DNA of 32,000 bases from Candidatus Micrarchaeum sp. (GTDB lineage Archaea > Micrarchaeota > Micrarchaeia > Micrarchaeales > Micrarchaeaceae): contig NZ_CP060530.1 of NCBI RefSeq assembly GCF_016806735.1, positions 600,001 to 632,000 on the forward strand. The letters are read 5' to 3'. A program made the position numbers and the translations under genes. Below are positions 5,944 to 23,859 of the stretch, piece by piece; within the stretch, counting starts at the first letter, position 1; every line of letters begins with the position of its first letter. The notes beneath the pieces are model-generated. The model saw only the letters and a program-made list of their open reading frames with translations. It was not told the DNA's origin and ran no database searches.

Positions 5944-5981
5944 ATATACACCCTATAAACATGGTTTTAGAATTTTAAACA

Positions 5982-6941: not shown

Positions 6942-6965
6942 TCCAACACGATTTCTTTTAAAAAA

Positions 6966-6979
6966 GAAATTATAAAAAG
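6966..6979 (-). promoter_or_regulatory. Candidate TATA box for the epimerase gene
   Basis: The minus strand reads CTTTTTATAATTTC, centred about 32 nt upstream of ATG 6941. Confidence 0.3.
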
Positions 6980-6982
6980 TGG

Positions 6983-9229
6983 TCATAAATTTAGTTGTAT
7001 TTGCCTGCTTGCCCTAAATTCTATGCTTTTGATCAATTTTTTATGGTCGCTGAGGAATTCCAAGGTATACTCTCTGGATTTTATAAGTGTGTATTCGATA
7101 TTCATCTTGTTTGAAGTTATCCGATCTTCTTTCATAAACGTACCCAGATAACAAAGGCGGACGTAAGCAGGGACTTTTTTCTGCTCCTGCATAGTTATAG
7201 ATACGTTGGCTTTTATCGATTTAGGGCTTCTTTTTGATTTTGAGCCGTTTTCTGGTGAATCCGGAACGCCCTGGATTTTTTGTAGATGGATTTCAGGCTC
7301 TATTTCGTTATACCCGATGGTTTTTATGAATAAAGTGTCTGGAGACAGTTTTAAGCCATCCCTTTCTACCATATAGTTCAACGCGCCGAAACCGGATTCC
7401 AGATGTTTTAGCTTGGCTATTATTCGTTCTTCTTCCACATTGAAAAATACAAGATCTTCTACAGCCTTTTTTGCCACATCGGTAGGCTGCTTGAGATAGA
7501 TTTTGGATTGGCATAGCCTTCTGATATCTTGGTCTATGTCGGTTATGCTGTGGACTAATAGCATTAGACCCACGCCCAATTTCCTGAAATCCTGAATCCT
7601 TGAGCGTATGTCCATAACCGTTGCAGATTTTTGGTCCTTGAAAAGCATTTGGGCTTCCTCAACGCATATGAGCATGCGAAGACTTCCGTCTCCTTTAGTA
7701 TCAAATTTTGAGGTTTCCGAATACAGCTGATTTAATATCAGTGCATAAAAAAAGCTTTTCATCTGGACGCTGACTTCCGAAACATCGAATATTATCCCGT
7801 CTTCCAGCAATTTGCCAATGCTTATTGATTCTCTGCCAGAATATTCCGGAAATTGGAGTATTTCTATTAGGCCTTCCAATGAGGATTTTATGTTCTCGCC
7901 ATGCTTTGTATATTTTACTCCGGTGTTGCTTCTGCTTCCGTGAAGCTCTATTATCGATTCGCTTATTTCCTTGTATATTGATATGGGATCGATCGCTTTA
8001 TTGTTGGAATAATAACGCCTGAATGCGTTTAGCAGGCATTTCTCAAGCGGCTTCTGATAAGGGCCAGACTCTGAAGCTGACGCAAGCAGCATTGATAGAT
8101 CCTGGTAAAATCTTTTAATTTCTACCCCTTCCGGAGGAATGAAAAAGTTTATTGGAACCCCATCGGAGCATATTTTTATTACATGCATGCCATGCGATTT
8201 GCCGAAATTAGCCCATTCGTCGGTTGGAGCTATTACGGCTATTTTAGGTTTTTCTTCCTGCTTGCTTAGCTGCGATATTATGCCCATAGCTTCGCTCGTT
8301 TTGCCTGTCCCTGGAAGGCCGCTTATTATAAAGCCCAGGTTGAAAAGGTTTTTGGGCATCTTTATATCTTTATAGTAATCGGCAGACGAGTATTTTACCG
8401 AACCTACCTTAATTCCGGATTCAGAAAATGAGGGCTTTGAATTAATCACATATTTCAGATCGTAATTGCCATAGGGCTTTAGGAGCTTGGCCGCAGCTAA
8501 GTTTCCAAAAGGTATCATTTTTGTTTTATTGACATAATCGAAGACCTCCGTTATATTATTCGTGTTTATCTCTGCATTCCCCATCACAAGTGCCTTTGAA
8601 TGCACATATTCCGAAATTTTATCCGTGTATTCTTGATCCACGATGTAGAATAGGGCTATTTTATATGATACACCATTGTTCATTATCGCAAAGTTTATTT
8701 GCTCTAGCGCCTCTTTTAGGATTCCTGATTCTTCGGAGTTGTCAAAAATTTCATGTTGAAACGAAGTTGAATCGCTGTTTCCCAAATTTAGAAAATTTCT
8801 CCATGTTGAGTTAAAGCGGTTTGGCATAGAGCTAAGTGTTTTTTCCATCTCTGCCTTTACGTTTCCAAGTTCTGAGGTGACCAAAGGCACAAACACTATG
8901 CCAAAAACTCCGGATCTTACCCCTATGTCAAATACGTCAGAGAATAGATCTTCCCTGATTGATTCTATTGATTTGTAAAAAAGGCACACGGACGCTTTTT
9001 TGAAGGCAAGCTGCTTATTTGCTAGGGAAAACGAGAGCCCGTCCATAGTGCTTGATATTAAATTTATTTTTTCAGACGGGTTTTCACAGTTTAGTTTGAT
9101 GAATGTGCTTTTTGATTCGAAATCGTATAAAACCGCAAAACCGTCTGCGTATATGCGTTCCAACAACAATTGGCCATTGAATCCGTCGCTTGGGACGCCA
9201 TCGAATTTGAATAAGTTTGATTCAGGCAT
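6983..9229 (-). CDS. Large HerA/FtsK/VirB4-superfamily P-loop ATPase (748 aa), last gene of the cluster
   Basis: Walker A GLPGTGKT (aa 304-311, nt about 8297-8320). Walker-B-like hydrophobic strand LICVEEAQ (aa 520-527). An FRKLGVGLMLLVHS block occupies the position of the (R/K)K.G.G....TQ motif. It has a roughly 300 aa N-terminal domain, a roughly 100 aa C-terminal extension, and no TM helices. Confidence 0.8.
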   Translation of the reverse strand: MPESNLFKFDGVPSDGFNGQLLLERIYADGFAVLYDFESKSTFIKLNCENPSEKINLISSTMDGLSFSLANKQLAFKKASVCLFYKSIESIREDLFSDVFDIGVRSGVFGIVFVPLVTSELGNVKAEMEKTLSSMPNRFNSTWRNFLNLGNSDSTSFQHEIFDNSEESGILKEALEQINFAIMNNGVSYKIALFYIVDQEYTDKISEYVHSKALVMGNAEINTNNITEVFDYVNKTKMIPFGNLAAAKLLKPYGNYDLKYVINSKPSFSESGIKVGSVKYSSADYYKDIKMPKNLFNLGFIISGLPGTGKTSEAMGIISQLSKQEEKPKIAVIAPTDEWANFGKSHGMHVIKICSDGVPINFFIPPEGVEIKRFYQDLSMLLASASESGPYQKPLEKCLLNAFRRYYSNNKAIDPISIYKEISESIIELHGSRSNTGVKYTKHGENIKSSLEGLIEILQFPEYSGRESISIGKLLEDGIIFDVSEVSVQMKSFFYALILNQLYSETSKFDTKGDGSLRMLICVEEAQMLFKDQKSATVMDIRSRIQDFRKLGVGLMLLVHSITDIDQDIRRLCQSKIYLKQPTDVAKKAVEDLVFFNVEEERIIAKLKHLESGFGALNYMVERDGLKLSPDTLFIKTIGYNEIEPEIHLQKIQGVPDSPENGSKSKRSPKSIKANVSITMQEQKKVPAYVRLCYLGTFMKEDRITSNKMNIEYTLIKSREYTLEFLSDHKKLIKSIEFRASRQIQLNL

Positions 9230-9500
9230 GCAGAATCACTACCAAAAGTTGCAATGAAAGCATTAATACCAAAAGCGATGTACTGGCGGCCCGCAAGTAT
9301 TTTTCCCTTAGAATTGCGTTAGAGCATAAGGCAGAAATCAGAATCAAAACTACGATTGGTACCGCAAATGCCTTAATCCCTGAGAATATTGAAAGGGTGG
9401 ATAGAAGCCAACAGGAAAAAATTGATAGAGCCAGTGTAACCCTTACCGTATGCGTGCCCTTTTTCGAACCCCCATATAACCGTGATATGTTTGCGAGCAT
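9222..9500 (-). CDS. Small integral membrane protein (92 aa from ATG 9500, about 3 TM helices)
   Basis: ATG 9500 follows the upstream stop as TAA-A-ATG. Its stop overlaps the ATPase start by 8 nt (ATGCCTGA). It has three hydrophobic segments. The ORF-track start at 9509 is GTG. Confidence 0.55.
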   Translation of the reverse strand: MLANISRLYGGSKKGTHTVRVTLALSIFSCWLLSTLSIFSGIKAFAVPIVVLILISALCSNAILREKYLRAASTSLLVLMLSLQLLVVILHA

Positions 9501-9501
9501 T

Positions 9502-9672
9502 TTAGGCACCTATGAGCATCCAAATGCCGAATAGTATTATCAACAGCGATACGATCATTTCCTTTATTTGACGTTTCTCAGTATATCCGTAAAGCACTGA
9601 AGCTATCGCCACCAAAAAACAGACTGAATCGGCAAGCGTATACAGTAATGACGTGTTAGGTTTCAGCATCAT
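9502..9672 (-). CDS. Unlisted 56-aa two-helix membrane protein (MMLKPNTSLLYTLADSVCFLVAIASVLYGYTEKRQIKEMIVSLLIILFGIWMLIGA)
   Basis: Hand translation of the minus strand gives an ATG-ATG start at 9672 and a TAA stop at 9504-9502. The start overlaps the upstream gene end by 17 nt, and the stop lies 1 nt before the next ATG. The protein is two hydrophobic helices joined by a basic loop (TEKRQIKE). It falls below the length cutoff of the ORF track. Confidence 0.45.
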   Translation of the reverse strand: MMLKPNTSLLYTLADSVCFLVAIASVLYGYTEKRQIKEMIVSLLIILFGIWMLIGA

Positions 9673-10357
9673 GAAGTATCAACCTTTGAGATTCGAACAT
9701 AAGCGAGCATAAGGCCCCCTTTCTTGAAAATGTAGAGATAAGCGAGTCAAATTCTGCATAGTCTGATTTTCTGCATGCAACGATATTTAGCAAACCATTT
9801 TTGAATTTGTTTGAAAGTATCCTTGACGTAGTGCAGTTCAAAAAAGAGCTAAAGTCCATATAGGAGGCAATTTCTAATATTTTCTTGGGATTTTTTTTGT
9901 TAATGTATACGCCAGAAGCCAGGTTTTTTTCATATGCAAGCCTTGAAGCTACAGATTTTCTGAAGTTTTTTGAACAGCTTATGAAATTGCCACATATTAC
10001 TGTAGTGAAATCAGAATATGTTGCTGCTCCAAATGCAGGCACATGGCTTTCAAATGGCAGCATGTTGTAAGTTGCATTGATGCCATATGCCTCTTCCTTG
10101 AGTATCGCCATGCTTCGCTCTTCAAAACTTGAAGTCTTTCCCTCGCCAAATTGCAAGTAACATCCTACTTTGTCCAAATCAGAATACAGCTTAACCGAGT
10201 CCTTTGCGTTTATCTTGGATGAAATAAAAAATAGCATGAACAGTCCAGATAGCCCAATGAAAAGCAATCCCTGCACCATGCCATATTGGAGCAAAATGAA
10301 TCCAGATGCCGTAAAAAGCAATGCAAACGACAACAATTCATTGCTAGATAGATTCAT
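9656..10357 (-). CDS. Membrane-anchored protein of unknown function (2 N-terminal TM helices plus a roughly 170 aa domain)
   Basis: ATG 10357 (MNLSSNELLSFALLF...) overlaps the upstream stop by 14 nt. Hydrophobic segments are at aa about 10-50. No recognisable motif. Confidence 0.6.
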   Translation of the reverse strand: MNLSSNELLSFALLFTASGFILLQYGMVQGLLFIGLSGLFMLFFISSKINAKDSVKLYSDLDKVGCYLQFGEGKTSSFEERSMAILKEEAYGINATYNMLPFESHVPAFGAATYSDFTTVICGNFISCSKNFRKSVASRLAYEKNLASGVYINKKNPKKILEIASYMDFSSFLNCTTSRILSNKFKNGLLNIVACRKSDYAEFDSLISTFSRKGALCSLMFESQRLILHDAET

Positions 10358-10979
10358 CGATAAGCACCCTTTTATAGCCAATGGCCCATTTTACCGTTTC
10401 AATCTCGACTCCTGAAGAGGTGCAAAACCTGCTTATGGCGTTGTCATCGTTCCAGTATGCCTTTGATATTGACTGAAAAAGATTCGAGAATTTTGACAAG
10501 TCCGTTGATTTTATTGCGTTCTCGCGTATCTTTTTGATTGCGATTTCGGATAGTACAATGTTGCTTCTTCGGATTTCTTTATATAATTCAATTGCCGATT
10601 CATTTTCGCTTTCATCGGGATTGTCCTTTTTCACACCTCTTAACGAGTCCATAAGAATCGGGTAAAGCGATTCCAGCTTTGCAGAGTAAGAATCTTTAAG
10701 ATATGCCAGTATTGAAAGGGTAAGAATTGAAATGTCGCACAAACTCAAATCTTCAGCCGATCTTGACTTGAATTCCAGTGAAATGCTGTCACGATATAAA
10801 TCGATCTGCAGTTTTGCAGGTTTTGTGCCCAAATCCAGGTCAAACGAGTAATAGTTCCCTCTTGAAATAAGTTTTGCATTTGGTAGGAAAGACATGACAC
10901 GCATCAATTCATTTCCAGAAACAAGGCGTTCGGCTTTTACGTTTATTTTTCTCTCAGCAACCATACTATCTTTTTTCAT
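10344..10979 (-). CDS. Soluble protein of unknown function (211 aa)
   Basis: ATG 10979 follows the ATPase stop as TGA-A-ATG. The ORF-track start at 10988 is GTG. No TM helices and no recognisable motif. Confidence 0.6.
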   Translation of the reverse strand: MKKDSMVAERKINVKAERLVSGNELMRVMSFLPNAKLISRGNYYSFDLDLGTKPAKLQIDLYRDSISLEFKSRSAEDLSLCDISILTLSILAYLKDSYSAKLESLYPILMDSLRGVKKDNPDESENESAIELYKEIRRSNIVLSEIAIKKIRENAIKSTDLSKFSNLFQSISKAYWNDDNAISRFCTSSGVEIETVKWAIGYKRVLIDESI

Positions 10980-10980
10980 T

Positions 10981-12075
10981 TCAAGCACCAGATTTTTGCA
11001 ATGTGTGTTTAATCGATGCCGCGATAATAATGTCTTTGATTCCCAACTTCCGCATGAAATATATTACTTTTTCCCTGGTGCAGCCATTATCAATGAGCAT
11101 GCGGACAATCTTTTCTATGGAGATGGATCTAAGCTCGCTTTCTATTAAGAAATCGAGTTTTCCGCTTATCTCCTTTCCGAATGCATGTTCGGCAGCTTCC
11201 ATTATCGAACGCTTAGTAAGGGTATATTCCATGGAATCACACTTCACAGTACAGAAACCTATCTCGAATTTTTGTATGTGCTTTATAGCTGACTTTTTTA
11301 CCTTTCCGCCAAGGCTTAGCATTATGCAGTAAAACGATCCCCTTTCCAACTCCGGAAGAGCTATAAGCTCTTTTTCTTCCAACAGCATTGACGATTTAAG
11401 CGAATTCAAGTTATCCGTTCCGTATATCTTGAACAGGAATATAGTACCGGCATTGTAGATTATTTCGTTGTTGACGTCTCCTAAAAGTTGTGTTGCGGCT
11501 ATTATGCCTATCCCGTATTTCCTTCCTTCCCTGAATATTCGTGATATTTGGACTTTGGTATCAGGATTTCCTAAAAAGTGCCATATTTCATCAACAAACA
11601 CTGACATGTCCATGCTGCCTATTGAACCCATACAGTCAAGAATTTGAGATAGCAACAGTGTAGCCTTTGACAGCTTCGCCTCAGCTTCAAATTTTGACAG
11701 GTTAAGGTATTGGCCCTTGGATTTTGAAAATCCTGCTTTCGATTCGGATTCGGATAATGCCAATGCATGTGCTATTCCGGCGTATTCCCCAGACCAATCT
11801 AATATTATAATGCGCTTGCCTGCAATTGATGAGAATTTCATTATCAGGTTTAGCATCAGGTTAGTTTTTCCAGACCCTGAAGTGCCGAGTATTGCAATAT
11901 GCGGATTTATGAGGCTCTTTCTTACATAGAATACCGGATCACGGTATTTTTGGGTTTTGCCTATGTAAACAGCTTCTTCTAACTCTTCTAGGGAATTTTG
12001 CGGCTCCGAAGGCTCAAAGAAGGGGATTTTAGAAACAAGAGATCCAACAGGGATTATATTTTTCATTTTTACCAC
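10981..12075 (-). CDS. Compact HerA/VirB4/FtsK-class P-loop ATPase (364 aa)
   Basis: NPHIAILGTSGSGKT Walker A (aa 57-71), VFVDEIWHFL Walker B (aa 159-168), and REGRKYGIGIIAATQ (aa 182-196). These resemble the DEAW and RK.G....TQ signatures of VirB4/HerA-type ATPases. Position 12075 is GTG sharing 1 nt with the upstream TAG; an ATG lies at 12066. Confidence 0.85.
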   Translation of the reverse strand: MVKMKNIIPVGSLVSKIPFFEPSEPQNSLEELEEAVYIGKTQKYRDPVFYVRKSLINPHIAILGTSGSGKTNLMLNLIMKFSSIAGKRIIILDWSGEYAGIAHALALSESESKAGFSKSKGQYLNLSKFEAEAKLSKATLLLSQILDCMGSIGSMDMSVFVDEIWHFLGNPDTKVQISRIFREGRKYGIGIIAATQLLGDVNNEIIYNAGTIFLFKIYGTDNLNSLKSSMLLEEKELIALPELERGSFYCIMLSLGGKVKKSAIKHIQKFEIGFCTVKCDSMEYTLTKRSIMEAAEHAFGKEISGKLDFLIESELRSISIEKIVRMLIDNGCTREKVIYFMRKLGIKDIIIAASIKHTLQKSGA

Positions 12076-12791
12076 TAATGGATGGCCCGGATTATTTCAG
12101 AAGCCTTCAAAACCTTTGAGGTTGAACCAAGTACCGAATCGAATAGGCTAGACACTTGCTTTATGGCCATTTTTGCAGAATTCTGTGCGGCATAGGCGTT
12201 ATCCCCGTACTCTGACACTATAACGTAATAATGGACGTTTACTGGAGTTCCGCCAGATACGAAGTCTTCTATTTCAGCGCTTAGGTGGCTTATTTCGGCT
12301 CTGAGCCTTGCCTCCACCATTGCGGACTTATGGGAGGATTTGTCAAGGCGCGAAAGCTGTATCTCTTTTATTCTTTTCTGTGTCTGCAGCTTTTCCATGA
12401 AATTTTTTAAATTGACCCTTTCGACAGATGCCATGAACCTGAAAGGAAATTCTGTTTTGGATATTATGCTTTCCATACTATCCCTGTCCAGTTTCCCATT
12501 TCCGGATCCGTTTATAGATGAAGCAGCTATTGCAGTGTATCCATTGTTCGATCTGCTAAGTAGACATAACTTGTCATTTCCTTCAATTATATTGCCATCG
12601 CTGCCGTTAACGCCAAGTAACCGCTCGGAATGAATTATGTTGGCTTTGGTGTCTATTATCAAAAGTGCATAGGCTATGCCGAGCAGTAGTGCCATTGGCC
12701 AGTAATTATGCATAAATGCGATTATAAGCAGAGCGATGCCAGCCTGCATTATCAGGTTCTCGTTTCTTCTTAGTGCATTTTTAATCTTCAT
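12075..12791 (-). CDS. Membrane protein with an N-terminal TM hairpin and a roughly 170 aa soluble domain (238 aa)
   Basis: ATG at 12791. Two hydrophobic helices at aa about 15-47, then a coiled-coil-like segment (QTQKRIKEIQLSRL...RLRAEISHLSAEIED). It directly abuts the 364-aa ATPase. Confidence 0.65.
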   Translation of the reverse strand: MKIKNALRRNENLIMQAGIALLIIAFMHNYWPMALLLGIAYALLIIDTKANIIHSERLLGVNGSDGNIIEGNDKLCLLSRSNNGYTAIAASSINGSGNGKLDRDSMESIISKTEFPFRFMASVERVNLKNFMEKLQTQKRIKEIQLSRLDKSSHKSAMVEARLRAEISHLSAEIEDFVSGGTPVNVHYYVIVSEYGDNAYAAQNSAKMAIKQVSSLFDSVLGSTSKVLKASEIIRAIH

Positions 12792-12800
12792 TTCAAAACC

Positions 12801-13817
12801 TTAAAACACGTCAAACCTTGAAAAGGACACTTCTGTTCCGAGTATCCTAGCAAATTCCCTTGCAGATATTATGGTAAGAATTACGCTGAAGATTGGAAAC
12901 ATTATCACTTCAACCACTATCAGCACCACCTGCCTGAAAACATACAGTATTGAATTTTCAGAGGATGAGAGTATGGAAGACGCATTTGAGAAAATGGAAC
13001 TTATTGATTCTTTGCTTGGCTGCGAAGATTGATTATAGGAATACAGGCCATTCAAGCTAGATTTTGTTGCGGTTATTAATTGTAAAGTAGAAGTTTGCGA
13101 ATAGCTTTGAACCATAGATGCATCAAGCATATAGGACATTGGCAGCACCACGAAAAGGCTTATCGCTATAGCCATTATTGCCCCGCCAAGCCTGCGGGTA
13201 AGATAAAGGGTGCGGAGAACCATGCCCAAAGGCAATAGCACAGGTATAGCTACATATGAAATTACTTTGATTACTGAATATTGCAAGAATATACTGAATA
13301 CTGAAAGCGTGAGGAGTTCTATTATATCCCCCAATTGCATGAGGAACGGCTTGAACAGGTTGTTAAATGATATCGATGCCAAGCCAATGCTCAGATGCAG
13401 CGAGGAAATAAGCCCTGCAACAGCATATAAGCTGCTTATTGCAAGAAGCGACCCGCTCGACAGGTCAAATAACGATGGATATTGATGGCCGTTTATTGTG
13501 ACTCCGGACAACCCCATTAGGTAACCTTCCGAAAAACATATTGCATAGCTATAGTTGTATGGACCTGTGCATGCATTGACAGAATTGCCAGAAACCCCAT
13601 ATGCTATGGAATTGGTAATTTCCGTTACAAAACCACCTGGAAGAAACAGTATTATTAAAATTCCAAGAATTGCGGCATTTATAAACGATTCTATGAGTTC
13701 GTTCCTGCCGAAATCCTTGAGCTTTTTGTTGTCAAATGCGAACCCAAGCCCAAATATGATTCCGCCCACTGCCAGCATTATCGAAACGATTGTAATACCT
13801 ATTTCGTATCCGTACAT
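12801..13817 (-). CDS. Polytopic integral membrane protein (about 6-7 TM helices), VirB6/TrbL/CedA-like by architecture only
   Basis: ATG 13817 (MYGYEIGITIVSIML...). The longer ORF-track start at 13874 would overlap the upstream gene by 44 nt. It has multiple long hydrophobic segments and a Ser/Thr/Asn-rich loop (SYSQTSTLQLITATKSSLNGLYSYNQSSQPSKESISSIFSNASSILSSSENS) before the last TM helix. Confidence 0.65.
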   Translation of the reverse strand: MYGYEIGITIVSIMLAVGGIIFGLGFAFDNKKLKDFGRNELIESFINAAILGILIILFLPGGFVTEITNSIAYGVSGNSVNACTGPYNYSYAICFSEGYLMGLSGVTINGHQYPSLFDLSSGSLLAISSLYAVAGLISSLHLSIGLASISFNNLFKPFLMQLGDIIELLTLSVFSIFLQYSVIKVISYVAIPVLLPLGMVLRTLYLTRRLGGAIMAIAISLFVVLPMSYMLDASMVQSYSQTSTLQLITATKSSLNGLYSYNQSSQPSKESISSIFSNASSILSSSENSILYVFRQVVLIVVEVIMFPIFSVILTIISAREFARILGTEVSFSRFDVF

Positions 13818-13830
13818 TCGGCCGCACGCT

Positions 13831-14235
13831 TTATGTTGTAGACACGGAATTGGCGAGCAGATGCGAAGATGCAACTGCGAGAGAGGTTGATGCCACGCTT
13901 AGAAGGCTTATTATTATTGCCCCGATTATGATATTTATCGAAGCTGTATGGAAATTGGCCCTCTTGTCCGGAGGCATTACCTGGCCTACGGCATAGAATA
14001 CCCCAGCAACTATGAAAAGAACCGCGCCAAGGATAGGGCCTACCTGCGAAAGCACAGATTTGATGTATGTCAATTCAGATACGATGCCTATCGTATTCGA
14101 ATTCAGGAGCATTGGAGAAGCACCGTTGCTTATCGAAAACAGGTATATCTGCAGTACGAAAAGCAGGATAAGCAGATGCTTGATCCTGAGCAATTTGCTA
14201 GCTAGTGCTTTTACATATCTAGGAATTTTTGGCAT
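13831..14235 (-). CDS. Secreted/membrane two-helix protein; candidate VirB2/TrbC/CedA1-like pilin (134 aa)
   Basis: ATG 14235 is preceded by GGTG at -9 to -6. A long basic n-region and hydrophobic core form a signal peptide (MPKIPRYVKALASKLLRIKHLLILLFVLQIYLFSISNGA). Two hydrophobic helices follow (aa about 65-86 and 99-122), joined by a basic loop (MPPDKRANFHTA). Confidence 0.6.
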   Translation of the reverse strand: MPKIPRYVKALASKLLRIKHLLILLFVLQIYLFSISNGASPMLLNSNTIGIVSELTYIKSVLSQVGPILGAVLFIVAGVFYAVGQVMPPDKRANFHTASINIIIGAIIISLLSVASTSLAVASSHLLANSVSTT

Positions 14236-14333
14236 GTCTACACCTTTTACTTTTATACAAGTATTTTATTTAGATAAATATTTAAATACTTTTATACAAG
14301 TAAGGCGTAGGAAATAGGCATTAGATTTCTGAA
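14236..14333 (-). promoter_or_regulatory. Only sizeable intergenic gap inside the cluster; AT-rich candidate internal promoter/operator for the pilin-like gene
   Basis: The 98-nt gap contains two perfect 16-nt repeats and a central inverted repeat (see the repeat feature), several TATA-like stretches, and a GGTG Shine-Dalgarno-like element. Confidence 0.45.
14248..14302. repeat. Two perfect 16-nt direct repeats TACTTTTATACAAGTA (14248-14263 and 14287-14302) flanking the inverted repeat TATTTA-GA-TAAATA
   Basis: Read directly from the sequence. Each 16-mer is itself a near-palindrome (TACTT-nTATAn-AAGTA; 14 of 16 positions are self-complementary). Spacing between copies is 39 nt. Confidence 0.9.
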
Positions 14334-15854
14334 TTATTTGGATTTATTCGCAGAATAGTTAAGGTATTCGGAATTTAGATAGGATAAACCTCCCTGGAGA
14401 AAAGTGTATTTGTTTGATATGTAATGCGAAATGTTCATGTACAGGTTCGGGAGCTCTACGCTTGCGTTTCTGTATCTAAGTACTCTGTGGGATACATACG
14501 ATATGTGTCCGTTTACATTCGTAGTTCCGTTTGTCAATACAATGTAGAACATGCAACTTTTGTTCGTATAAAAGCTTATATTTACTTCTTTAGTATTCAT
14601 GAACTTCCCAAAGCTGTATTTCGAAATGCTTTTTTTATAATTCGAATAGTTTGATTGGCCGCTTATGCTTATGCCATTTATGAAATCCGAAGCGTTTCTG
14701 AGTTCGAAAAAGCTTGCATTCGAGCTGAACGATAGCGATGCTTTGTAGGTTATATTAAAGCCGGGAGCGCAGAAAGAATCGAACGTGTAATATGGAAATG
14801 CGTACATCTTTACTTTTTTTGTACCGTTTTCTACTGAGGTGACAGGAATTTCGACATTACTTTTTACATAGTCTCCGGAATAGCTGATTGGACCGAAGGC
14901 AGATTTTGCCACTGCAGAAGTATTGCTCAACGGGATCGCTCTTACTGTAGTGTAGTTGGAATAGTTAAAAGGCATAAAATAAGCATATATGCCTTTGGTG
15001 AATTCTGGTGAAGCAATATTCAGGGAAAGATTGGCAACATAGTCGTTCGTTTCGTTTATCTGGCTTAATGTTGAATTTATCTCTTGCCCGTTCCCATAGA
15101 AGAACTGAATGTTTGACAGGTTTGCTGTAGTATAGCTAGAAAGCCCAGAATAATTTACTTCGACAGGATAGTAAACGGTTGAAGAATTGGGCTGATGCTC
15201 AAAAAGAGAGTCATTGATGCTTATCCTTGCATGCGGAAACATGCCCAGAGACAGCGAGGGCCCTGTAGGCCATATTGGCGCTATGATAAGAACCATGGCA
15301 ACAACCATGGCAGCATAAAGCATCATTTGTACGGTTTTTTTTGATGGTGAAAATCTTTTGCGTATTTTATGAAGTTTAGACTCTCCAAAAGCAGTACTTA
15401 TAAATATTGATATGACTGCGCCTATGAGCAGATAGTATCCAACTATTGCGGTGTTTATTGCAAAATTCAGGTTTGCAAAAAATCCCAGCAAATACAGCAG
15501 ATCTGGAAGCGCAAGGACGAAATAGGAATATATCTTGTATTCTCTTTTCATGTCAATTATATATACTGCAAAAAAGGCAGCGATGGAAAATATGCCGTAG
15601 TACTCCGAGATGCTCTTTCCCATATAGAGAAGAGAGCCAGCGATTATGAAAGCCAGAGCACCTACGATTTCGTAGGTGGAGAGCTTATCGCTGAATGCTG
15701 ACAGTACTCCCAAGATTACGAATAAGGGAAACGCGTACAGTATTAAGTACGCGTTGTTGGTAATGGTAAAGTATGCCAGGAACATTGCAGCCAGAAAAAG
15801 CCACAGTGCAAGGGCGACAGGTTTTAACGCCCTTTCTACATCCCTGTTTGGCAT
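14334..15854 (-). CDS. 7-TM membrane protein with a large Asn/Ser/Tyr-rich, sequon-dense extracellular domain (506 aa); first gene of the cluster
   Basis: ATG 15854 lies 15 nt after the aCPSF1 stop. There are seven hydrophobic segments in aa about 11-193. Within aa about 195-506 I count about 22 N-X-S/T sequons. Confidence 0.7.
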   Translation of the reverse strand: MPNRDVERALKPVALALWLFLAAMFLAYFTITNNAYLILYAFPLFVILGVLSAFSDKLSTYEIVGALAFIIAGSLLYMGKSISEYYGIFSIAAFFAVYIIDMKREYKIYSYFVLALPDLLYLLGFFANLNFAINTAIVGYYLLIGAVISIFISTAFGESKLHKIRKRFSPSKKTVQMMLYAAMVVAMVLIIAPIWPTGPSLSLGMFPHARISINDSLFEHQPNSSTVYYPVEVNYSGLSSYTTANLSNIQFFYGNGQEINSTLSQINETNDYVANLSLNIASPEFTKGIYAYFMPFNYSNYTTVRAIPLSNTSAVAKSAFGPISYSGDYVKSNVEIPVTSVENGTKKVKMYAFPYYTFDSFCAPGFNITYKASLSFSSNASFFELRNASDFINGISISGQSNYSNYKKSISKYSFGKFMNTKEVNISFYTNKSCMFYIVLTNGTTNVNGHISYVSHRVLRYRNASVELPNLYMNISHYISNKYTFLQGGLSYLNSEYLNYSANKSK

Positions 15855-15869
15855 CCATACCAGCCATTT

Positions 15870-17834
15870 TTATTTTAACCTTATGGAATCAAGGTTCATT
15901 GGAGCCCTTGCATCTGCATGTACCAATCTTCCGAGAGTCCTTGCGAGATCCTCGCATTTCTGCTCTTCTCCGTGCATTGTGAATATGTTCTTCGGCTTTG
16001 CGCTCAGCTTCTGCACGAAGCTCATGAGCTGGTGCCTGTCGCTGTGTCCGGAAAAACCTTCAACTGTTTTTATGTTCATGTTGACCTTTATTGGCACAAG
16101 CTTTCCGTTTTCGTCCGGAAGAGGCACTTCGCTGACCCCGTTCTGTATCCTGCGGCCCATGGAGCCTGCGCTGTTGTATCCGACGAATACAAGGGTGTTT
16201 TTAGGATCGTCTGCCAGCCTCTTGAAATATTCCACGCTAGCTCCTCCGTTCATCATTCCTCCGCTAGCGAGTATTATGGAAGGCCCCTTTTCGAAGACCT
16301 CCTCCCTCTCTCCTTTTATAACCTCGAATATGTCGCTTTCGAACGGCGACCTGTTGCTCAGTATCCTGTTCTTGAGGTTCTCCTTCAGGTATTCCGGATA
16401 AGCGGTGTGTATGGCGCTTGCCTCGAGTATCATTCCGTCAAGAAACACCGGAACGTCAAGCTTGTAAGGGCTGTTTTCCCCGGTCAGGTAGCTTTCCAGC
16501 ACCAGCTGCAGCTCTTGGCTTCTTCCGACTGCGAACAGCGGCACCAGAACCTTGCCTCCACCGTCTATGGTCCTCTTTATCGTATCCATAAGGTTCTTTT
16601 CGGCATCGTGCCTGTTTGGGGTTATATCGCTTGGCCCTCCGTATGTGCTCTCTATGAAAAGAGAGTCTATGCGCGGGTAGCGCGTCGATGTCGGGTCGAA
16701 AAGCCTTGTGAAGCCATACTTCATGTCCCCGGTATGCACTATGTTGTACATTCCTTCCCCGACATGCATGTGAACCGTTGAGCTTCCGAGTATGTGGCCT
16801 GCATTGTGGTATGTAAGCTTGAGCTCGTCGGTTATGTTCGTTACCTCATTATAGTCCCTTGTTATTATGTGCGTAAGCATTTTGCGAACGTCCTTCTCCG
16901 AATACAGTGGAGTGGCTCCGCTTCTCTGGACCAGCTTTATGTAGTCATTGAGCAGCAGCGCTGCAAGATCCCTGGTTGGAGGTGTACAGTATACCGGGCC
17001 CTCGTAACCGTACTTGAACAGATACGGTATGAAGCCCATATGGTCCATGTGCCCGTGGGTTACGACTACGGCATCTAGCTCGTTTATCGAGAAGTTGGCG
17101 CTGTCAAGATACGGAAAAGCCTTGTTGTTTTCCGAATTGGCGTTGGCGTCCAGGCCTTTTATTCCAGGCTCAGGGCTTATTCCGCAGTCTATTATTACCT
17201 TCGAATGGGGCGTTTCAAGCAGCAGGCTGCTCCTGCCAACCTCCCTGAAGCCGCCAAGGGCAGTTGCCTTCAGCCATTCGCTTTTCGTTATAACGCGATT
17301 TATGTTCTTTCCTATTGTATTCAGGAACTTTTTCCTAAAATCGCTTTCGTTGAACATGAGCTGTCTGACTCCCTTTATGGTCTCGCTGTCCATAGTTGGG
17401 GTCCTGAGCACTCTGGGAACCCAGCTCGTCTCAGTGGCTATGGCCTTCAGCGTGGAGCCGCCCTTGCCTATGACAAGTCCAGGCTTAAGGGCTTCTATGT
17501 AAACCTCGGCAAAATCCGGAACGAACCTTATGTTGGTAACGTTGGCTTCCTTCGGTATGAGCTGCTTTACCACCTCCATGGCCTTCTCAGGAGCCATAAG
17601 GGATGAATTCTCGCTGCGTATTATGAGCTTTTTCTTTATGGCTGATGCTATGTCGCGCACCAGGTTCTCGTCTTGGTAAACCGCTTTTATGTTCTTGACT
17701 ACGACTATGATGTCAGGGCCCTCGAACTCGGCTTTCGAAAATCCGGCCTCGCTAGGCAACAGCGACTGTATCTTTTTGAAAAGCTCTTCTGATCGCTCTT
17801 TTGATGTATCTTTCTCTGTTTTTTTGTCTTCCAA
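15870..17834 (-). CDS. fttA: aCPSF1 / FttA: KH-domain beta-CASP ribonuclease and archaeal transcription termination factor
   Basis: N-terminal KH-like region, metallo-beta-lactamase motif VVTHGHMDHMG, and beta-CASP motifs (ESTYG, SGHSD, MHGE). The ORF-track start at 17834 is TTG; the first in-frame ATG is codon 80. Confidence 0.95.
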   Translation of the reverse strand: MEDKKTEKDTSKERSEELFKKIQSLLPSEAGFSKAEFEGPDIIVVVKNIKAVYQDENLVRDIASAIKKKLIIRSENSSLMAPEKAMEVVKQLIPKEANVTNIRFVPDFAEVYIEALKPGLVIGKGGSTLKAIATETSWVPRVLRTPTMDSETIKGVRQLMFNESDFRKKFLNTIGKNINRVITKSEWLKATALGGFREVGRSSLLLETPHSKVIIDCGISPEPGIKGLDANANSENNKAFPYLDSANFSINELDAVVVTHGHMDHMGFIPYLFKYGYEGPVYCTPPTRDLAALLLNDYIKLVQRSGATPLYSEKDVRKMLTHIITRDYNEVTNITDELKLTYHNAGHILGSSTVHMHVGEGMYNIVHTGDMKYGFTRLFDPTSTRYPRIDSLFIESTYGGPSDITPNRHDAEKNLMDTIKRTIDGGGKVLVPLFAVGRSQELQLVLESYLTGENSPYKLDVPVFLDGMILEASAIHTAYPEYLKENLKNRILSNRSPFESDIFEVIKGEREEVFEKGPSIILASGGMMNGGASVEYFKRLADDPKNTLVFVGYNSAGSMGRRIQNGVSEVPLPDENGKLVPIKVNMNIKTVEGFSGHSDRHQLMSFVQKLSAKPKNIFTMHGEEQKCEDLARTLGRLVHADARAPMNLDSIRLK

Positions 17835-22766: not shown

Positions 22767-22841
22767 GCTCCCATCGTCTAGCCCGGCCAAGGACACGGGG
22801 CTTTCAACCCTGTAACACGAGTTCAAATCTCGTTGGGAGCA
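22767..22841 (+). tRNA. tRNA-Glu (anticodon UUC)
   Basis: Hand-folded cloverleaf. Acceptor GCTCCCA/TGGGAGC, D stem GTCT/GGAC, anticodon stem CGGGG/CCCTG with loop CTTTCAA, T stem ACGAG/CTCGT with loop TTCAAAT, and discriminator A. No encoded CCA. Confidence 0.9.
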
Positions 22842-22875
22842 CTTATTTATAATTTCCAGGAGTTAAATATAAGGA

Positions 22876-23484: not shown

Positions 23485-23678
23485 AAAAAAGCAGTCTGCT
23501 TATAGAGTTGGCAAAAGAAAAAAAGCGCAATGCAGACGACAACCTAAAGTTCGTAAAGCTTCGTGCCGAATGGATAAAAAGGAAAAGCAACAAGGACTGG
23601 AGCAAGCGCCAGAAATCTATAATCGACAGTTTATATAAGTCAAACAGGAAACTGAAGCTAAAAAGAGCAAAGGCGTAG
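23481..23678 (+). CDS. Small highly basic protein (65 aa, K/R-rich)
   Basis: The start overlaps the upstream stop as ATGA. The composition is helical and Lys/Arg-rich. No recognisable domain. Confidence 0.4.
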   Translation: MKKSSLLIELAKEKKRNADDNLKFVKLRAEWIKRKSNKDWSKRQKSIIDSLYKSNRKLKLKRAKA

Positions 23679-23859
23679 CGATGGCTACGATACTGTAGAG
23701 CTGGCTTAATCCCGTTGAAAGCATCTGATATTTGGGTTATATAGAAGCATAAATGATCGCTGTATTCGCTTTATCTGCATTGCAATGGCCACCAGATCAG
23801 AAACAGCGTATTATAAATATATCGTATTTTTAAGCTGTATCAAGCCAGAGGGTGGTTTT

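What the first reader, a model, noticed from the sequence alone, without database searches (positions are those of the whole stretch)
6983..15854. Ten-gene translationally coupled membrane/ATPase cluster: candidate uncharacterised archaeal conjugative-pilus-like (T4SS / Ced-Ted-like) DNA-transfer or cell-contact machine
What the sequence shows: ten co-directional minus-strand genes with almost no spacing. In transcription order the junctions are a 98-nt gap, a 13-nt gap, a 9-nt gap, a 1-nt overlap or 8-nt gap, TGA-A-ATG, a 14-nt overlap, a 17-nt overlap, TAA-A-ATG, and an 8-nt overlap. The products in order are:
- a 7-TM protein with a sequon-dense ectodomain;
- a signal-peptide protein with two hydrophobic helices;
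- a 6-7 TM polytopic protein;
- a TM-hairpin protein with a soluble domain;
- a 364-aa P-loop ATPase with VirB4/HerA-like motifs (GTSGSGKT, VDEIWHFL, GRKYGIGIIAATQ);
- a soluble unknown protein;
- a bitopic unknown protein;
- two tiny membrane proteins of 56 aa and 92 aa;
- a 748-aa second HerA/FtsK-class ATPase.
Established knowledge: bacterial conjugative T4SS cores combine a VirB2 pilin, VirB3, a VirB4 ATPase, a polytopic VirB6 and a second (coupling) ATPase. The archaeal Ced (Sulfolobales) and Ted (Thermoproteales) DNA-import systems use a VirB4/HerA-like ATPase, a polytopic CedA-type protein and small VirB2-like pilins.
Inference: this block has that parts list, but none of its proteins is recognisable by eye as a known family member. 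It lacks a relaxase, an integrase, and type IV pilin or GspE-type components. It carries extra components (glyco-ectodomain protein, second ATPase without TM helices, two unknowns). It sits in the chromosome between housekeeping genes rather than in an obvious mobile element. It could therefore be a novel domesticated DNA exchange, DNA uptake or cell-cell contact apparatus.
Basis: partly seen in the sequence, partly recalled or inferred. Interest (0 to 1): 0.9.

Follow-up and report, generated by a model that had tools for sequence, protein, structure and literature searches.

The report
Conjugation-like pilus machine in Micrarchaeota
A tiny symbiotic archaeon (Candidatus Micrarchaeum) carries a tightly packed chromosomal operon, conserved across its whole phylum, that is a stripped-down relative of the bacterial conjugation (type IV secretion) machine, and it gives a concrete candidate for how these cells make thin pili and exchange DNA or other material with other cells.

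Summary
All ten minus-strand genes and every stated junction are present. The window comes from Candidatus Micrarchaeum sp. (locus tags Micr_00642 to Micr_00650).

The conserved unit is nine genes, g2 to g10, not ten. Gene order g2-g3-g4-g5-g6 is invariant in about 80 species-level Micrarchaeota genomes, inside changing housekeeping neighbourhoods. There is a long form that includes g8, g9 and g10, and a six-gene short form. g1 is specific to the genus.

Component evidence:
- **g2** is a VirB2/TrbC-type pilin. 67 of 76 orthologs hit Pfam T4SS_pilin.
- **g4** is a transmembrane hairpin plus a domain whose AlphaFold model matches only VirB4 (TrwK of plasmid R388) in the PDB.
- **g5** is the ATPase half alone, so g4 and g5 together form a split VirB3/VirB4 of CedB-like length.
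- **g10** is a second ATPase whose best match is CedD.
- **g3**, the polytopic protein, sits where VirB6/CedA/TedA would sit, but no homology could be shown.
- **g6 to g9** are lineage-specific.

No relaxase, coupling protein, integrase, or plasmid or virus link was found.

[quoted passage not shown] It probably builds a conjugative-type pilus and moves DNA. Its function is untested.

The parts
14334..15854 (-). g1 (Micr_00650), 506 aa. It has an N-terminal 7-TM block and a sequon-dense ectodomain. It is a genus-specific accessory, probably not a core part.
   Evidence: ORF. It has 7 TM segments and 22 sequons versus 7.2 +/- 2.2 in shuffles. Orthologs occur in only 9 of 90 loci, and it is absent from the distant clusters L007 and L009. 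There is no Pfam, NCBIfam or PADLOC match.
14236..14333 (-). 98-nt gap between g1 and g2, with a duplicated TATA-like 15-mer and GGTG before the ATG. It is a candidate archaeal promoter and ribosome-binding site for the conserved operon, which starts at g2.
   Evidence: Sequence read: ACTTGTATAAAAGTA occurs twice, and AAGGTG lies 7 nt before the ATG. g2 is the first conserved gene in all other lineages. Promoter function is inferred, not shown.
13831..14235 (-). g2 (Micr_00649), 134 aa. It is a VirB2/TrbC-type T4SS pilin precursor: a signal peptide (c-region SNGAS), two hydrophobic helices and an invariant basic loop, PPDK(R/K)ANFH.
   Evidence: Pfam T4SS_pilin matches 67 of 76 orthologs (best E = 4.1e-7) and TrbC/VirB2 matches 42 of 76 (best 4.9e-7). 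The window protein itself scores 18.4 bits, below the gathering cut-off of 26.6. It is the most conserved protein of the cluster, with median pairwise identity 0.52. Alignment. hhalign against R388 TrwL aligns in register at E = 1.3e-3, probability 19%.
12801..13817 (-). g3 (Micr_00648), 338 aa. It is a polytopic (about 7 TM) membrane protein with two invariant ectodomain cysteines and a conserved C-terminal tail. It occupies the position and has the topology expected of a VirB6/CedA/TedA-type channel, but homology is not shown.
   Evidence: It always follows the pilin gene (86 of 90 loci). The model has pLDDT 78 and pTM 0.69. Foldseek against the PDB finds nothing better than E = 0.36. No Pfam, NCBIfam or PDB-sequence hit is consistent across 72 orthologs. 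hhalign against R388 TrwI gives probability 0.1%.
12075..12791 (-). g4 (Micr_00647), 238 aa. An N-terminal TM hairpin (in the position of VirB3) is followed by a cytoplasmic alpha/beta domain that resembles the N-terminal domain of VirB4. It is the N-terminal half of a split VirB3/VirB4.
   Evidence: The model, built with an 80-sequence alignment, has pLDDT 89.4 and pTM 0.72. The top 13 Foldseek PDB hits are all TrwK/VirB4 of R388 (E = 1.4e-4 to 2.4e-2, probability 0.99-1.00), and the next hit has E = 0.16. The NCBIfam CedB model is the only recurrent family (5 of 71 orthologs, best 7.6e-4). An exhaustive search finds 93 relatives, the full-length ones about 240 aa and none fused to an ATPase.
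10981..12066 (-). g5 (Micr_00646), 361 aa. It is a FtsK/HerA/VirB4-superfamily P-loop ATPase domain only (Walker A at residue 61) and forms the C-terminal half of the split VirB4/CedB-like motor.
   Evidence: Pfam DUF87 scores 50.6 bits (cut-off 23.2) and AAA_10 scores 33.5 bits (cut-off 27.5). Best NCBIfam hits are CedB 2.5e-16, CedD 1.1e-14 and VirB4-like CD1110 9.5e-14. The family profile against the PDB gives HerA-clade 2.5e-21 and the VirB4 C-terminal domain 4ag5 2.1e-13. Catalytic residues are invariant.
10344..10979 (-). g6 (Micr_00645), 211 aa. It is a soluble, partly coiled-coil protein of a lineage-specific family, and a conserved member of the operon.
   Evidence: It is present after g5 in 78 of 90 loci. 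PDB profile hits are coiled-coil noise only. A few orthologs give weak HTH or winged-helix Pfam hits.
9656..10357 (-). g7 (Micr_00644), 233 aa. It has an N-terminal membrane anchor and a cysteine-containing domain. The family is lineage-specific and fast-evolving.
   Evidence: It is detected in 59 of 90 loci. Where the HMM fails, a 1-TM ORF of 150-217 aa occupies the same slot. There are no Pfam or PDB hits.
9502..9672 (-). g8 (Micr_00643), 56 aa. It is a 2-TM mini-protein conserved by position in the long form.
   Evidence: In 36 of 42 long-form loci the gap between g7 and g10 holds at least one small multi-TM ORF. In most of them a 2-TM ORF of about 60-67 aa is followed by a 2- to 3-TM ORF of 93-105 aa. 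TM prediction.
9222..9500 (-). g9 (Micr_00642), 92 aa. It is a 3-TM mini-protein conserved by position, and its stop overlaps the g10 start by 8 nt.
   Evidence: Sequence similarity is detectable only to close relatives.
6983..9229 (-). g10 (public gene ID OJT94636.1/QRF74113.1), 748 aa. It is a second VirB4/CedD-like ATPase: an unknown N-terminal domain of about 290 aa, a P-loop domain, and a variable C-terminal domain of about 130 aa. It is present only in the long form of the cluster.
   Evidence: NCBIfam on 40 orthologs: CedD 18 of 40 (best 3e-12), VirB4_plasma 11 (1.2e-8), CedB 7 (2e-7), CD1110 VirB4-like 6 (3.9e-10), TraC 2 and VirB4_CagE 1. The best PDB profile hit is HerA-like 8wiv at 6.4e-6. 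Walker A and Walker B are invariant. It is present in 51 of 90 loci, and at least 10 loci with 5.7 kb or more of downstream sequence lack it.

Best explanation
[quoted passage not shown] It is conserved across the DPANN phylum Micrarchaeota and is a third lineage of the kind represented by the archaeal Ced and Ted systems.

**What is shown**
- g2 belongs to the VirB2/TrbC pilin family and has an N-terminal signal-peptide-like segment.
- g4 (TM hairpin plus VirB4-like N-terminal domain) and g5 (ATPase domain only) together have the parts and total length of one VirB3/VirB4-type or CedB-type motor, split into two translationally coupled genes.
- g10 is a second, CedD-like paralogous ATPase.
- g2 to g7 always occur together in one order. 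g8, g9 and g10 complete a long form.

**Inferred mechanism**
1. The pilin is inserted into the membrane and its signal peptide is removed.
2. The g4/g5 motor is anchored by the g4 hairpin. It docks on a membrane platform made of polytopic g3 (in the VirB6/CedA position) and the small membrane proteins g7 to g9.
3. The motor extracts pilin from the membrane and polymerises it into a thin, hollow conjugative-type pilus.
4. On contact with another cell (a conspecific or the Thermoplasmatales host), the second ATPase g10 drives substrate through the channel.
5. The substrate is most probably DNA and the direction most probably inward, as in Ced. The reasons are the absence of a relaxase or coupling protein, the fixation of the system in reduced genomes, and the fact that the nearest ATPase models are the DNA-import proteins CedB and CedD.

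**My sub-confidences**
- T4SS-derived membrane machine: about 0.85.
- It makes a VirB2-type pilus: about 0.65.
- The substrate is DNA and the direction is import: about 0.35-0.4.
For: - **Pilin.** Pfam T4SS_pilin matches 67 of 76 orthologs and TrbC/VirB2 matches 42 of 76, with best E about 4e-7. The architecture is a signal peptide, a helix, the invariant basic loop PPDK(R/K)ANFH, and a second helix.
- **Split VirB4.** The g4 model has pLDDT 89. Its only significant PDB matches are 13 chains of TrwK/VirB4. No other RecA-fold ATPase appears, and neither does the VirB4 structure 4ag5, which contains only the C-terminal domain. This places the match in the VirB4-specific N-terminal part. In g5 the Walker A lies at residue 61, so g5 has no N-terminal domain of its own. 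g4 plus g5 is 599 aa, against a CedB model length of 590, and g5 residues 12-96 align to CedB positions 228-314. The CedB model also hits 5 of 71 g4 orthologs.
- **ATPase affinities.** g5 matches CedB, CedD and VirB4-like models best. The g10 family matches CedD best, then VirB4 and CedB models.
- **Published precedent.** CedB and CedD are HerA-clade ATPases with VirB4-like N-terminal domains, and both are needed for DNA import (PMC11868833). Ced and Ted are homologs of VirB2, VirB6 and VirB4 (PMC9905601).
- **Co-conservation.** 140 species-level genomes carry the pilin. Gene order is invariant in the 80 loci examined. g8 and g9 are conserved by position.
- **Chromosomal and vertical inheritance.** Flanks are identical in a genome whose ATPase is only 56% identical. 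Distant lineages have different housekeeping flanks. The cluster is present on chromosomes or contigs of 0.85-1.05 Mb.
- **No mobile-element or defence signature.** No recurrent integrase or relaxase was found. There were no plasmid, phage or viral matches. No defence partners were found.
Against: - g3 shows no detectable homology to VirB6, TrbL, CedA or TedA by Pfam, NCBIfam, PDB sequence profile, Foldseek or hhalign.
- The window pilin alone scores below the Pfam gathering threshold, and the pilin profile hits no solved pilin sequence.
- By sequence, the g5 and g10 ATPase domains are closer to HerA than to bacterial VirB4, and PADLOC HerA models score as well as CedB does.
- The VirB4 structural match rests on one protein (TrwK) at moderate TM-score (0.31-0.40), and the tool does not report which TrwK residues align.
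- All NCBIfam hits lie far below the curated cut-offs, so nothing here is an equivalog of a Ced protein.
- g6 to g9 have no known relatives.
- There is no expression, imaging or transfer evidence. The published paper on this organism does not mention the genes.
- The six-gene short form lacks g10 at the locus, so g10 may not be universally required.
Confidence: 0.6

Rival explanations
1. It is the same T4SS-derived machine, but its job is host interaction rather than DNA exchange. It would be a conduit or secretion/uptake device for proteins, lipids, nucleotides or other molecules between the Micrarchaeon and its Thermoplasmatales host. This would be analogous to the chromosomal, relaxase-less T4SS of episymbiotic Patescibacteria.
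For: - Micrarchaeota are host-dependent with reduced genomes, and the system is fixed phylum-wide.
- The Patescibacteria T4SS is chromosomal, mostly lacks a relaxase, includes VirB2-like pilins, and was reported as essential for epibiotic growth (PMC12102498).
- Nanohaloarchaeal giant surface proteins carry VirB4-like ATPase domains proposed to act on hosts (PMC10266531).
- Cryo-ET of a Micrarchaeon co-culture shows an unidentified 21-nm barrel in the symbiont envelope and thin filaments on symbiont cells (PMC11329633).
- The genus-specific glyco-ectodomain protein g1 sits at the head of the cluster.
Against: - No effector-like or adhesin genes are co-conserved with the cluster.
- The nearest ATPase models are DNA-import proteins.
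- The nanotubes seen by cryo-ET were assigned to the host, not the symbiont.
- Nothing here tests the substrate.
Confidence: 0.25
2. It is a pilus-only or adhesion apparatus. The VirB2-like filament would serve attachment or biofilm formation, with no substrate moved through it.
For: - The pilin is by far the most conserved component (median identity 0.52, against 0.30 for the ATPase).
- The short form lacks the second ATPase.
- This organism depends on biofilm growth (PMC8975820).
Against: - Known VirB2-type pili all belong to translocation machines.
- A second CedD-like ATPase is retained in most lineages.
- Archaea normally use type IV pili for adhesion, and such pilin genes lie separately next to some of these clusters.
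Confidence: 0.08
3. It is the transfer module of an integrated conjugative element or a decayed plasmid, that is, selfish mobile DNA rather than a host function.
For: - GC content is 0.39-0.42 across 5-16 kb, against 0.46-0.52 around it.
- One source annotates g5 as 'TraC'.
- Archaeal conjugative elements also lack recognisable relaxases (PMC9905601).
- An integrase fragment lies about 6 kb upstream in L004.
Against: - The cluster occupies the same position, between the same housekeeping genes, in genomes whose ATPases are only 56% identical.
- It is present in 140 species genomes with invariant order but variable housekeeping flanks.
- No recurrent integrase, replication or partition genes were found.
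- No tRNA or repeat boundary flanks the cluster. The nearest tRNA is 7 kb away, beyond the CPSF, proteasome and TFB genes.
- There are no matches in plasmid, phage or viral collections.
- The GC dip also covers the epimerase and part of the aminopeptidase gene.
Confidence: 0.04
4. It is a HerA-type defence or DNA-repair module that happens to lie next to unrelated membrane-protein genes.
For: - By sequence, the best solved relatives of g5 and g10 are HerA proteins of defence systems and Sulfolobus HerA.
- PADLOC HerA models hit g5 at 2.9e-16 and mad8 hits g10 at 8.8e-12.
Against: - No Sir2, DUF4297, NurA, Mre11/Rad50 or other effector partner is present in the cluster.
- g5 lacks the HerA N-terminal barrel, because its Walker A lies at residue 61.
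- The adjacent g4 matches the VirB4-specific domain.
- The ATPases are strictly co-ordered with a VirB2-family pilin and membrane proteins in about 80 genomes.
- CedB and CedD themselves belong to the HerA clade.
Confidence: 0.03

Closest known systems
Ced system of Sulfolobales (CedA, CedA1, CedA2, CedB, plus CedD and CedE)
   Same: - It is chromosomal, has no relaxase, and is a domesticated T4SS derivative.
- It has two paralogous HerA-clade ATPases with VirB4-like N-terminal parts. CedB is the best NCBIfam hit for g5, and CedD is the best for the g10 family.
- It combines a polytopic membrane protein with small two-helix membrane proteins.
- g4 plus g5 has the length of CedB (599 aa against a 590-position model).
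   Different: - All hits lie far below the equivalog cut-offs (59 bits against 700, and 24 bits against 600), so these are not Ced orthologs.
- The motor is split into two genes here.
- The pilin has a cleavable-type signal peptide and matches bacterial T4SS_pilin and TrbC models, whereas CedA1 is reported to be unprocessed (PMC9905601).
- No CedA similarity was detected for g3.
- g6 to g9 have no Ced counterparts.
- The genes form one compact operon.
- The host lineage is DPANN, not Thermoproteota.
Ted system of Thermoproteales (TedC pilin, TedA, TedB)
   Same: - The VirB2-like pilin has a signal-peptidase-I-type signal peptide.
- The pilin gene lies next to a polytopic membrane-protein gene.
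- A VirB4-class ATPase lies nearby.
- It is chromosomal and has no relaxase (PMC9905601).
   Different: - TedB is an intact VirB4, whereas here the motor is split and its ATPase domain is nearer the HerA/CedB clade.
- The neighbours typical of Ted (VirC1/ParA-like, Rad50, HerA) are absent.
- A second CedD-like ATPase is present.
- No sequence link to a solved pilin was found.
Bacterial conjugative T4SS inner-membrane complex (R388 TrwL/VirB2, TrwM/VirB3, TrwK/VirB4, TrwI/VirB6)
   Same: - The pilin family matches.
- The g4 domain matches TrwK structurally.
- The gene logic is the same, with a pilin, a small TM-hairpin protein and an ATPase close together, as in R388 trwL-trwM-trwK.
   Different: - There is no VirB5 or VirB7 to VirB11, no VirD4 and no relaxase.
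- VirB4 is split after its N-terminal domain.
- The TM hairpin is fused to that N-terminal domain.
- The VirB6 relationship is unproven.
- The envelope is archaeal, with a single membrane.
Chromosomal T4SS of Patescibacteria (CPR), derived from MPF-FATA
   Same: - The setting is the same: ultrasmall, host-dependent episymbionts.
- The system is chromosomal, widespread across the lineage, mostly lacks a relaxase, and includes VirB2-like pilins (PMC12102498).
   Different: - The Patescibacteria system has a bacterial origin, an intact VirB4 nested in the MPF-FATA clade, and different accessory proteins.
- No direct sequence relationship was tested here.

Membership tests
T4SS superfamily (conjugation-type mating-pair-formation machinery) | A VirB4-family ATPase, the signature protein of the superfamily | tested here: met
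   The feature is met as a split protein. g5 passes the Pfam cut-offs for DUF87 and AAA_10 and hits VirB4-type NCBIfam models (CD1110 9.5e-14, TraC, VirB4_CagE) below their curated cut-offs. The g4 model matches only TrwK/VirB4 in the PDB. Caveat: by sequence, the ATPase domain is slightly nearer HerA than bacterial VirB4.
T4SS superfamily (conjugation-type mating-pair-formation machinery) | A VirB2/TrbC-type pilin with a signal peptide, two hydrophobic helices and a short loop | tested here: met
   At family level, PF18895 matches 67 of 76 orthologs and PF04956 matches 42 of 76, with best E about 4e-7. The window protein alone is sub-threshold at 18.4 bits against 26.6. The architecture was read from the alignment.
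T4SS superfamily (conjugation-type mating-pair-formation machinery) | A VirB6/TrbL-type polytopic channel protein | tested here: inconclusive
   g3 has the right position and a polytopic topology. It has no Pfam, NCBIfam, PDB-profile, Foldseek or hhalign signal. Comparison with CedA/TedA profiles or the AlphaFold DB was not possible.
T4SS superfamily (conjugation-type mating-pair-formation machinery) | A VirB3-type TM hairpin associated with the VirB4 N-terminus | tested here: inconclusive
   g4 begins with a two-helix hairpin (H2-27 and H30-58 in the model) directly before the VirB4-like domain. No sequence match to VirB3 was found.
Self-transmissible conjugative element (plasmid or ICE) | A relaxase, a type IV coupling protein (VirD4/TraG), and integration or replication functions | tested here: not met
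   None of the ten products is a relaxase or an integrase, and none has a full VirD4/TraG-type coupling-protein match; g5 gives only short P-loop-region hits to TrwB_AAD_bind and coupling-protein models. The recurrent flanking families are housekeeping genes. There are no matches in the plasmid, phage or viral collections.
Ced system (Sulfolobales DNA import) | Orthologs of CedB and CedD (NCBIfam equivalog models) | tested here: not met
   These are the best hits, but they lie far below the cut-offs: CedB scores 59.4 bits against 700, and CedD scores 54.1 and 24.1 bits against 600. The relationship is at clade or superfamily level only.
Ced system (Sulfolobales DNA import) | A CedA polytopic protein and unprocessed CedA1/CedA2 pilins | tested here: not met
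   No NCBIfam hit of any Ced-type membrane protein was found for g3 or for g2, g8 and g9. g2 has a cleavable-type signal peptide, unlike CedA1.
Ced system (Sulfolobales DNA import) | Induction by DNA damage and a demonstrated DNA-import function | not testable with these tools
   This needs transcriptomics and transfer assays in the co-culture.
Ted system (Thermoproteales) | A TedC-like processed pilin next to a TedA-like gene, plus an intact VirB4 (TedB) | tested here: inconclusive
   The processed-type pilin adjacent to a polytopic gene is met by architecture. No sequence link to any solved pilin was found. The ATPase is split and HerA-clade rather than an intact VirB4.
HerA-based defence or repair modules | A HerA ATPase with an N-terminal HAS-barrel, plus a partner effector or nuclease (Sir2, DUF4297, NurA and others) | tested here: not met
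   No partner was found in the cluster. g5 begins about 60 residues before its Walker A, so it has no barrel. The neighbouring g4 matches VirB4.

The most novel reading that the evidence does not exclude
This operon is the DPANN counterpart of the episymbiosis T4SS of Patescibacteria. On this reading it is the core apparatus by which Micrarchaeota physically connect to other cells and take up macromolecules (DNA as a nucleotide and gene source, or other cargo). It would be built from a VirB2-type pilus, a split VirB3/VirB4 motor and a set of entirely new membrane components (g3, g6-g9). It might also account for so-far unassigned envelope structures or filaments seen by cryo-ET on Micrarchaeota. 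If so, T4SS-derived machines would have been recruited independently for the ultrasmall-symbiont lifestyle in both prokaryotic domains.
Probability: 0.3. Interest if true: 0.9.

Novelty: new variant of a known kind. Interest (0 to 1): 0.74.

Why it matters
Domesticated T4SS-like systems in archaea have so far been described only for Thermoproteota (Ced and Ted). How DPANN archaea exchange material with other cells is an open question. The full-text searches found no paper linking Micrarchaeota to a T4SS.

This cluster gives named, testable candidates in a cultivated co-culture organism: a pilin (Micr_00649), a motor (Micr_00647 and Micr_00646) and a second ATPase.

It also shows a natural split of VirB4 between its N-terminal domain and its ATPase domain. 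This bears on how CedB/CedD-type and VirB4-type motors are related. The cluster further defines five protein families (g3, g6, g7, g8, g9) that are strictly linked to a T4SS-type pilin but have no known relatives.

Finally, phylum-wide retention in genomes of about 1 Mb argues that the machine is important for the lifestyle of these cells.

Tried and rejected
1. A concatenated g2|g3|g4 alignment used as one query for the search for homologous proteins returned nothing and cost one search. Single-protein queries worked.
2. Published work reports that the CedA N-terminus resembles CedA1. I tested the same idea for g3 against g2. hhalign gave probability 0.35%. The top alignment is in register (helix plus basic loop) but is not significant.
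3. I compared the g3, g4 and g10 family profiles with single R388 sequences (TrwI and TrwK). There was no signal. g10 against the g4 family also gave no signal.
4. I looked for ATPases that carry g4 as a fused N-terminus. The longer Micrarchaeota ATPases P0032-P0048 also start about 55 residues before Walker A, and P0042 and P0049 do not match g4. An exhaustive search found no g4 relative fused to an ATPase.
5. Foldseek of the g3 model against the PDB returned only generic long-helix proteins (TTYH2 and BAR domains) at E of 0.36 or worse.
6. PDB and Pfam searches for g6 and g7 returned coiled-coil noise or nothing.
7. I looked for expression values for Micr_00642 to Micr_00650. The supplements of the A_DKE paper hold annotation tables only.
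8. The bacterial sigma-70 promoter and terminator scan is not meaningful for an archaeon, and its counts were at the shuffle level.
10. I considered the GC dip as evidence for recent horizontal acquisition and rejected it. The dip extends over neighbouring housekeeping genes, and the locus is syntenic in a divergent relative.

Full report
**1. Observation**

The ten co-directional minus-strand ORFs exist as described. With the start codons used by public gene calls, the junctions are a 98-nt gap, a 13-nt gap, a 9-nt gap, a 1-nt overlap or 8-nt gap, a 1-nt gap, a 14-nt overlap, a 17-nt overlap, a 1-nt gap and an 8-nt overlap. This matches the finding. The g1 ectodomain has 22 sequons, against 7.2 +/- 2.2 in shuffles. 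The window has one tRNA (Glu, 22767-22842), 7 kb away from the cluster, and no other Rfam match.

**2. Source organism and conservation**

Exact-sequence look-up places all ten proteins in Candidatus Micrarchaeum sp., on a 989,838-bp record, with locus tags Micr_00642 to Micr_00650 covering g9 to g1. All are annotated hypothetical except two: g5 ('type-IV secretion system protein TraC' or HerA-like) and g10 ('AAA-like domain protein').

A genome whose ATPase is only 56% identical carries the same cluster between the same neighbours. These are CPSF-KH/beta-CASP, proteasome and TFB on one side, and M1 aminopeptidase, a GT2 glycosyltransferase and a helicase on the other. More distant relatives, with ATPases about 29% identical, carry the cluster in other housekeeping contexts. 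One carries it as a six-gene form, g2 to g7 (L007, next to TCA-cycle and cytochrome bd genes). Another carries a form including g9 and g10 (L009).

A scan of one genome per GTDB species with the pilin alignment found relatives in 140 genomes. The best 80 loci are almost all Micrarchaeota MAGs. They include chromosomes or contigs of 0.85-1.05 Mb.

Iterative HMM searches on the ORFs of 90 loci show the order g2-g3-g4-g5-g6 wherever the contig allows. The counts per gene are:

| Gene | Loci with a detected ortholog (of 90) |
|---|---|
| g2 | 90 |
| g3 | 86 |
| g4 | 85 |
| g5 | 84 |
| g6 | 78 |
| g7 | 59 |
| g10 | 51 |

The sequences of g8 and g9 diverge too fast to detect, but they are conserved by position. 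In 36 of 42 long-form loci, the roughly 450-nt space between g7 and g10 holds at least one small multi-TM ORF. In most of them a 2-TM ORF of 60-67 aa is followed by a 2- to 3-TM ORF of 93-105 aa. g1 is found in only 9 loci.

Flanking gene families are variable and are housekeeping genes: ribosomal protein L10e, Nre, RtcB, an M24 peptidase, diphthamide synthase and OGG. No family recurs in more than 14 loci, and none is an integrase or relaxase. g3 has no match in the plasmid or phage collections, and g2 has none in IMG/VR.

The conserved unit is therefore g2 to g10 (long form) or g2 to g7 (short form). It is chromosomal and inherited vertically.

**3. Components**

**g2.** The protein has an N-terminal signal-peptide-like segment whose c-region ends in small residues (SNGAS, RGAS or DAAS). 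Two hydrophobic helices follow, joined by the nearly invariant loop PPDK(R/K)ANFH. Scanned one by one, 67 of 76 orthologs match Pfam T4SS_pilin and 42 of 76 match TrbC/VirB2, with best E about 4e-7. The window protein alone is sub-threshold. g2 is the most conserved protein of the cluster, with median pairwise identity 0.52, against 0.30 for g5.

**g4.** An alignment of 80 relatives gave a confident model (pLDDT 89.4). The model has a two-helix TM hairpin followed by an alpha/beta domain with a long helical hairpin. The top 13 Foldseek hits in the PDB are all chains of TrwK/VirB4 from the R388 T4SS (E = 1.4e-4 to 2.4e-2, probability 0.99-1.00), and the next hit has E = 0.16.

No other RecA-fold ATPase appears among the hits. 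Absent are HerA, FtsK, TrwB and the VirB4 crystal structure 4ag5, which contains only the C-terminal domain. I therefore infer that the match is to the VirB4-specific N-terminal domain. The tool does not print target coordinates, so this step is inference.

**g5.** The gene starts immediately after g4. Its product has Walker A at residue 61, so it is an ATPase domain without an N-terminal domain. Its best NCBIfam hits are CedB, CedD and a VirB4-like conjugation ATPase. g5 residues 12-96 align to CedB model positions 228-314, and g4 plus g5 totals 599 aa against a 590-position CedB model. CedB is also the only recurrent NCBIfam hit for g4 orthologs (5 of 71).

**g10.** The family matches CedD best (18 of 40 orthologs, best 3e-12), followed by VirB4 and CedB models. 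Its catalytic residues are invariant.

By sequence against solved structures, both ATPases are nearest HerA-clade proteins. The same has been published for CedB and CedD, which combine HerA-clade ATPase domains with VirB4-like N-terminal domains (PMC11868833).

**g3.** This is a conserved protein of about 7 TM segments, with two invariant cysteines in an external loop. The model is reasonable (pLDDT 78). Every homology test was negative.

**g6 and g7.** Neither has informative matches.

**4. Mechanism (inferred)**

The parts fit a minimal T4SS inner-membrane machine adapted to a single-membrane archaeal envelope:
1. A pilin pool sits in the membrane.
2. A VirB3/VirB4-type motor, here split into g4 and g5, extracts and polymerises pilin on a platform made by g3 and the small membrane proteins.
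3. A second ATPase (g10, CedD-like) handles substrate.

I favour Ced-like DNA import for three reasons: there is no relaxase or coupling protein, the system is fixed in reduced genomes, and the nearest models are DNA-import ATPases. Transfer of other cargo during host contact is the main alternative.

**5. Comparison with known systems**

The cluster works like Ced and Ted but is not a member of either. All hits to Ced models lie far below the equivalog cut-offs. The pilin is of the processed, bacterial/Ted type rather than the CedA1 type. The motor is split. Five components are new families. The Ted-associated genes for ParA, Rad50 and HerA are absent.

It also parallels the chromosomal, relaxase-less T4SS of episymbiotic Patescibacteria (PMC12102498) and the VirB4-like domains reported in nanohaloarchaeal surface giants (PMC10266531).

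Full-text searches found no paper that links Micrarchaeota with a T4SS, VirB4 or VirB2. The paper describing this organism does not mention these genes.

**6. Rival explanations**

- **Mobile-element module.** This is contradicted by the synteny, the phylum-wide presence of the cluster and the lack of integration or replication genes.
- **HerA defence or repair module.** This is contradicted by the lack of partner effectors, by the VirB4-like g4, and by strict linkage to a pilin.
- **Host-interaction machine or pilus-only role.** Neither can be excluded with sequence data.

**7. Limits**

- The VirB4 structural match rests on one solved protein at moderate TM-score.
- The VirB6 assignment of g3 is positional only.
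- Signal-peptide cleavage, operon structure and the promoter in the g1-g2 gap are read from sequence, not measured.
- Several MAG labels are unreliable.
- No functional data exist.

Noticed in passing
L076:2586-3161, L077:3756-6069, L083:109-2270, L044:5219-7151, L084:6681-8273 (and others): Genes for archaeal type IV prepilin-like proteins lie upstream of the cluster in 14 of about 75 loci, mostly on the same strand and often in tandem runs of 3-4. They carry a class III signal peptide, for example KA|QSAMEYLMTYGWAILII and G|QSAIEFL. This recalls the pairing of Ups type IV pili with Ced in Sulfolobales. The window itself has none nearby.
   Followed up: partly
L074:4980-6551, L082, L088 (same strand); L056:8056-9459, L058, L068 (opposite strand): Some lineages have a third ATPase of 468-523 aa (DUF87 / TraG P-loop type) just upstream of the pilin gene. 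The one example scanned also gave a weak C-terminal TrmB-like HTH match (E = 6e-4, below the Pfam cut-off).
   Followed up: partly
window 5982-6986: The start of the NAD-dependent epimerase gene overlaps the g10 stop by 4 nt (ATGA), so it looks translationally coupled to the cluster. However, the gene is missing from the same position in the related locus L004, where a 59-aa ORF sits instead.
   Followed up: partly
window 14236-14333 (minus strand): The 98-nt gap between g1 and g2 contains a 15-nt direct repeat, ACTTGTATAAAAGTA, twice about 37 nt apart. Each copy holds a TATA-like box. AAGGTG lies just before the g2 ATG. This may be a tandem promoter or a regulator-binding site.
   Followed up: no
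L011, L023, L042, L070, L074 (record titles): Contigs carrying this Micrarchaeota-type cluster are labelled Methanothrix, Acidoferrum/Acidiferrales or Marsarchaeota in their MAG records. The likely cause is mis-binning or mislabelling. Some database protein names, such as 'MAG: ... [Methanothrix sp.]', inherit this.
   Followed up: no
window 5000-16000 and 23000-24000: GC content is 0.39-0.42 across the cluster, the epimerase gene and the end of the aminopeptidase gene, against 0.46-0.52 around them. A separate GC low of 0.376 lies just beyond tRNA-Glu (22767-22842), among small unknown ORFs. In L004 an integrase gene fragment lies at the corresponding upstream edge.
   Followed up: partly
window 10344-10979 (g6) and its orthologs: A few g6 orthologs give weak Pfam hits to HTH or winged-helix models (PF0610-like_N, HTH_11 and HTH_60; 1-2 of 63 orthologs each). 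The g6 profile also weakly aligns a winged-helix-type PDB entry near its C-terminus. This hints at a DNA-binding tail.
   Followed up: no
PMC11329633 (cryo-ET of Microcaldus variisymbioticus ARM-1 with its Sulfolobales host): The paper reports an unidentified 21-nm barrel complex in the Micrarchaeon envelope, thin filaments on Micrarchaeon cells, and host-derived nanotubes 6.7 nm wide. None of these has a molecular identity. I could not check whether ARM-1 carries this cluster.
   Followed up: no
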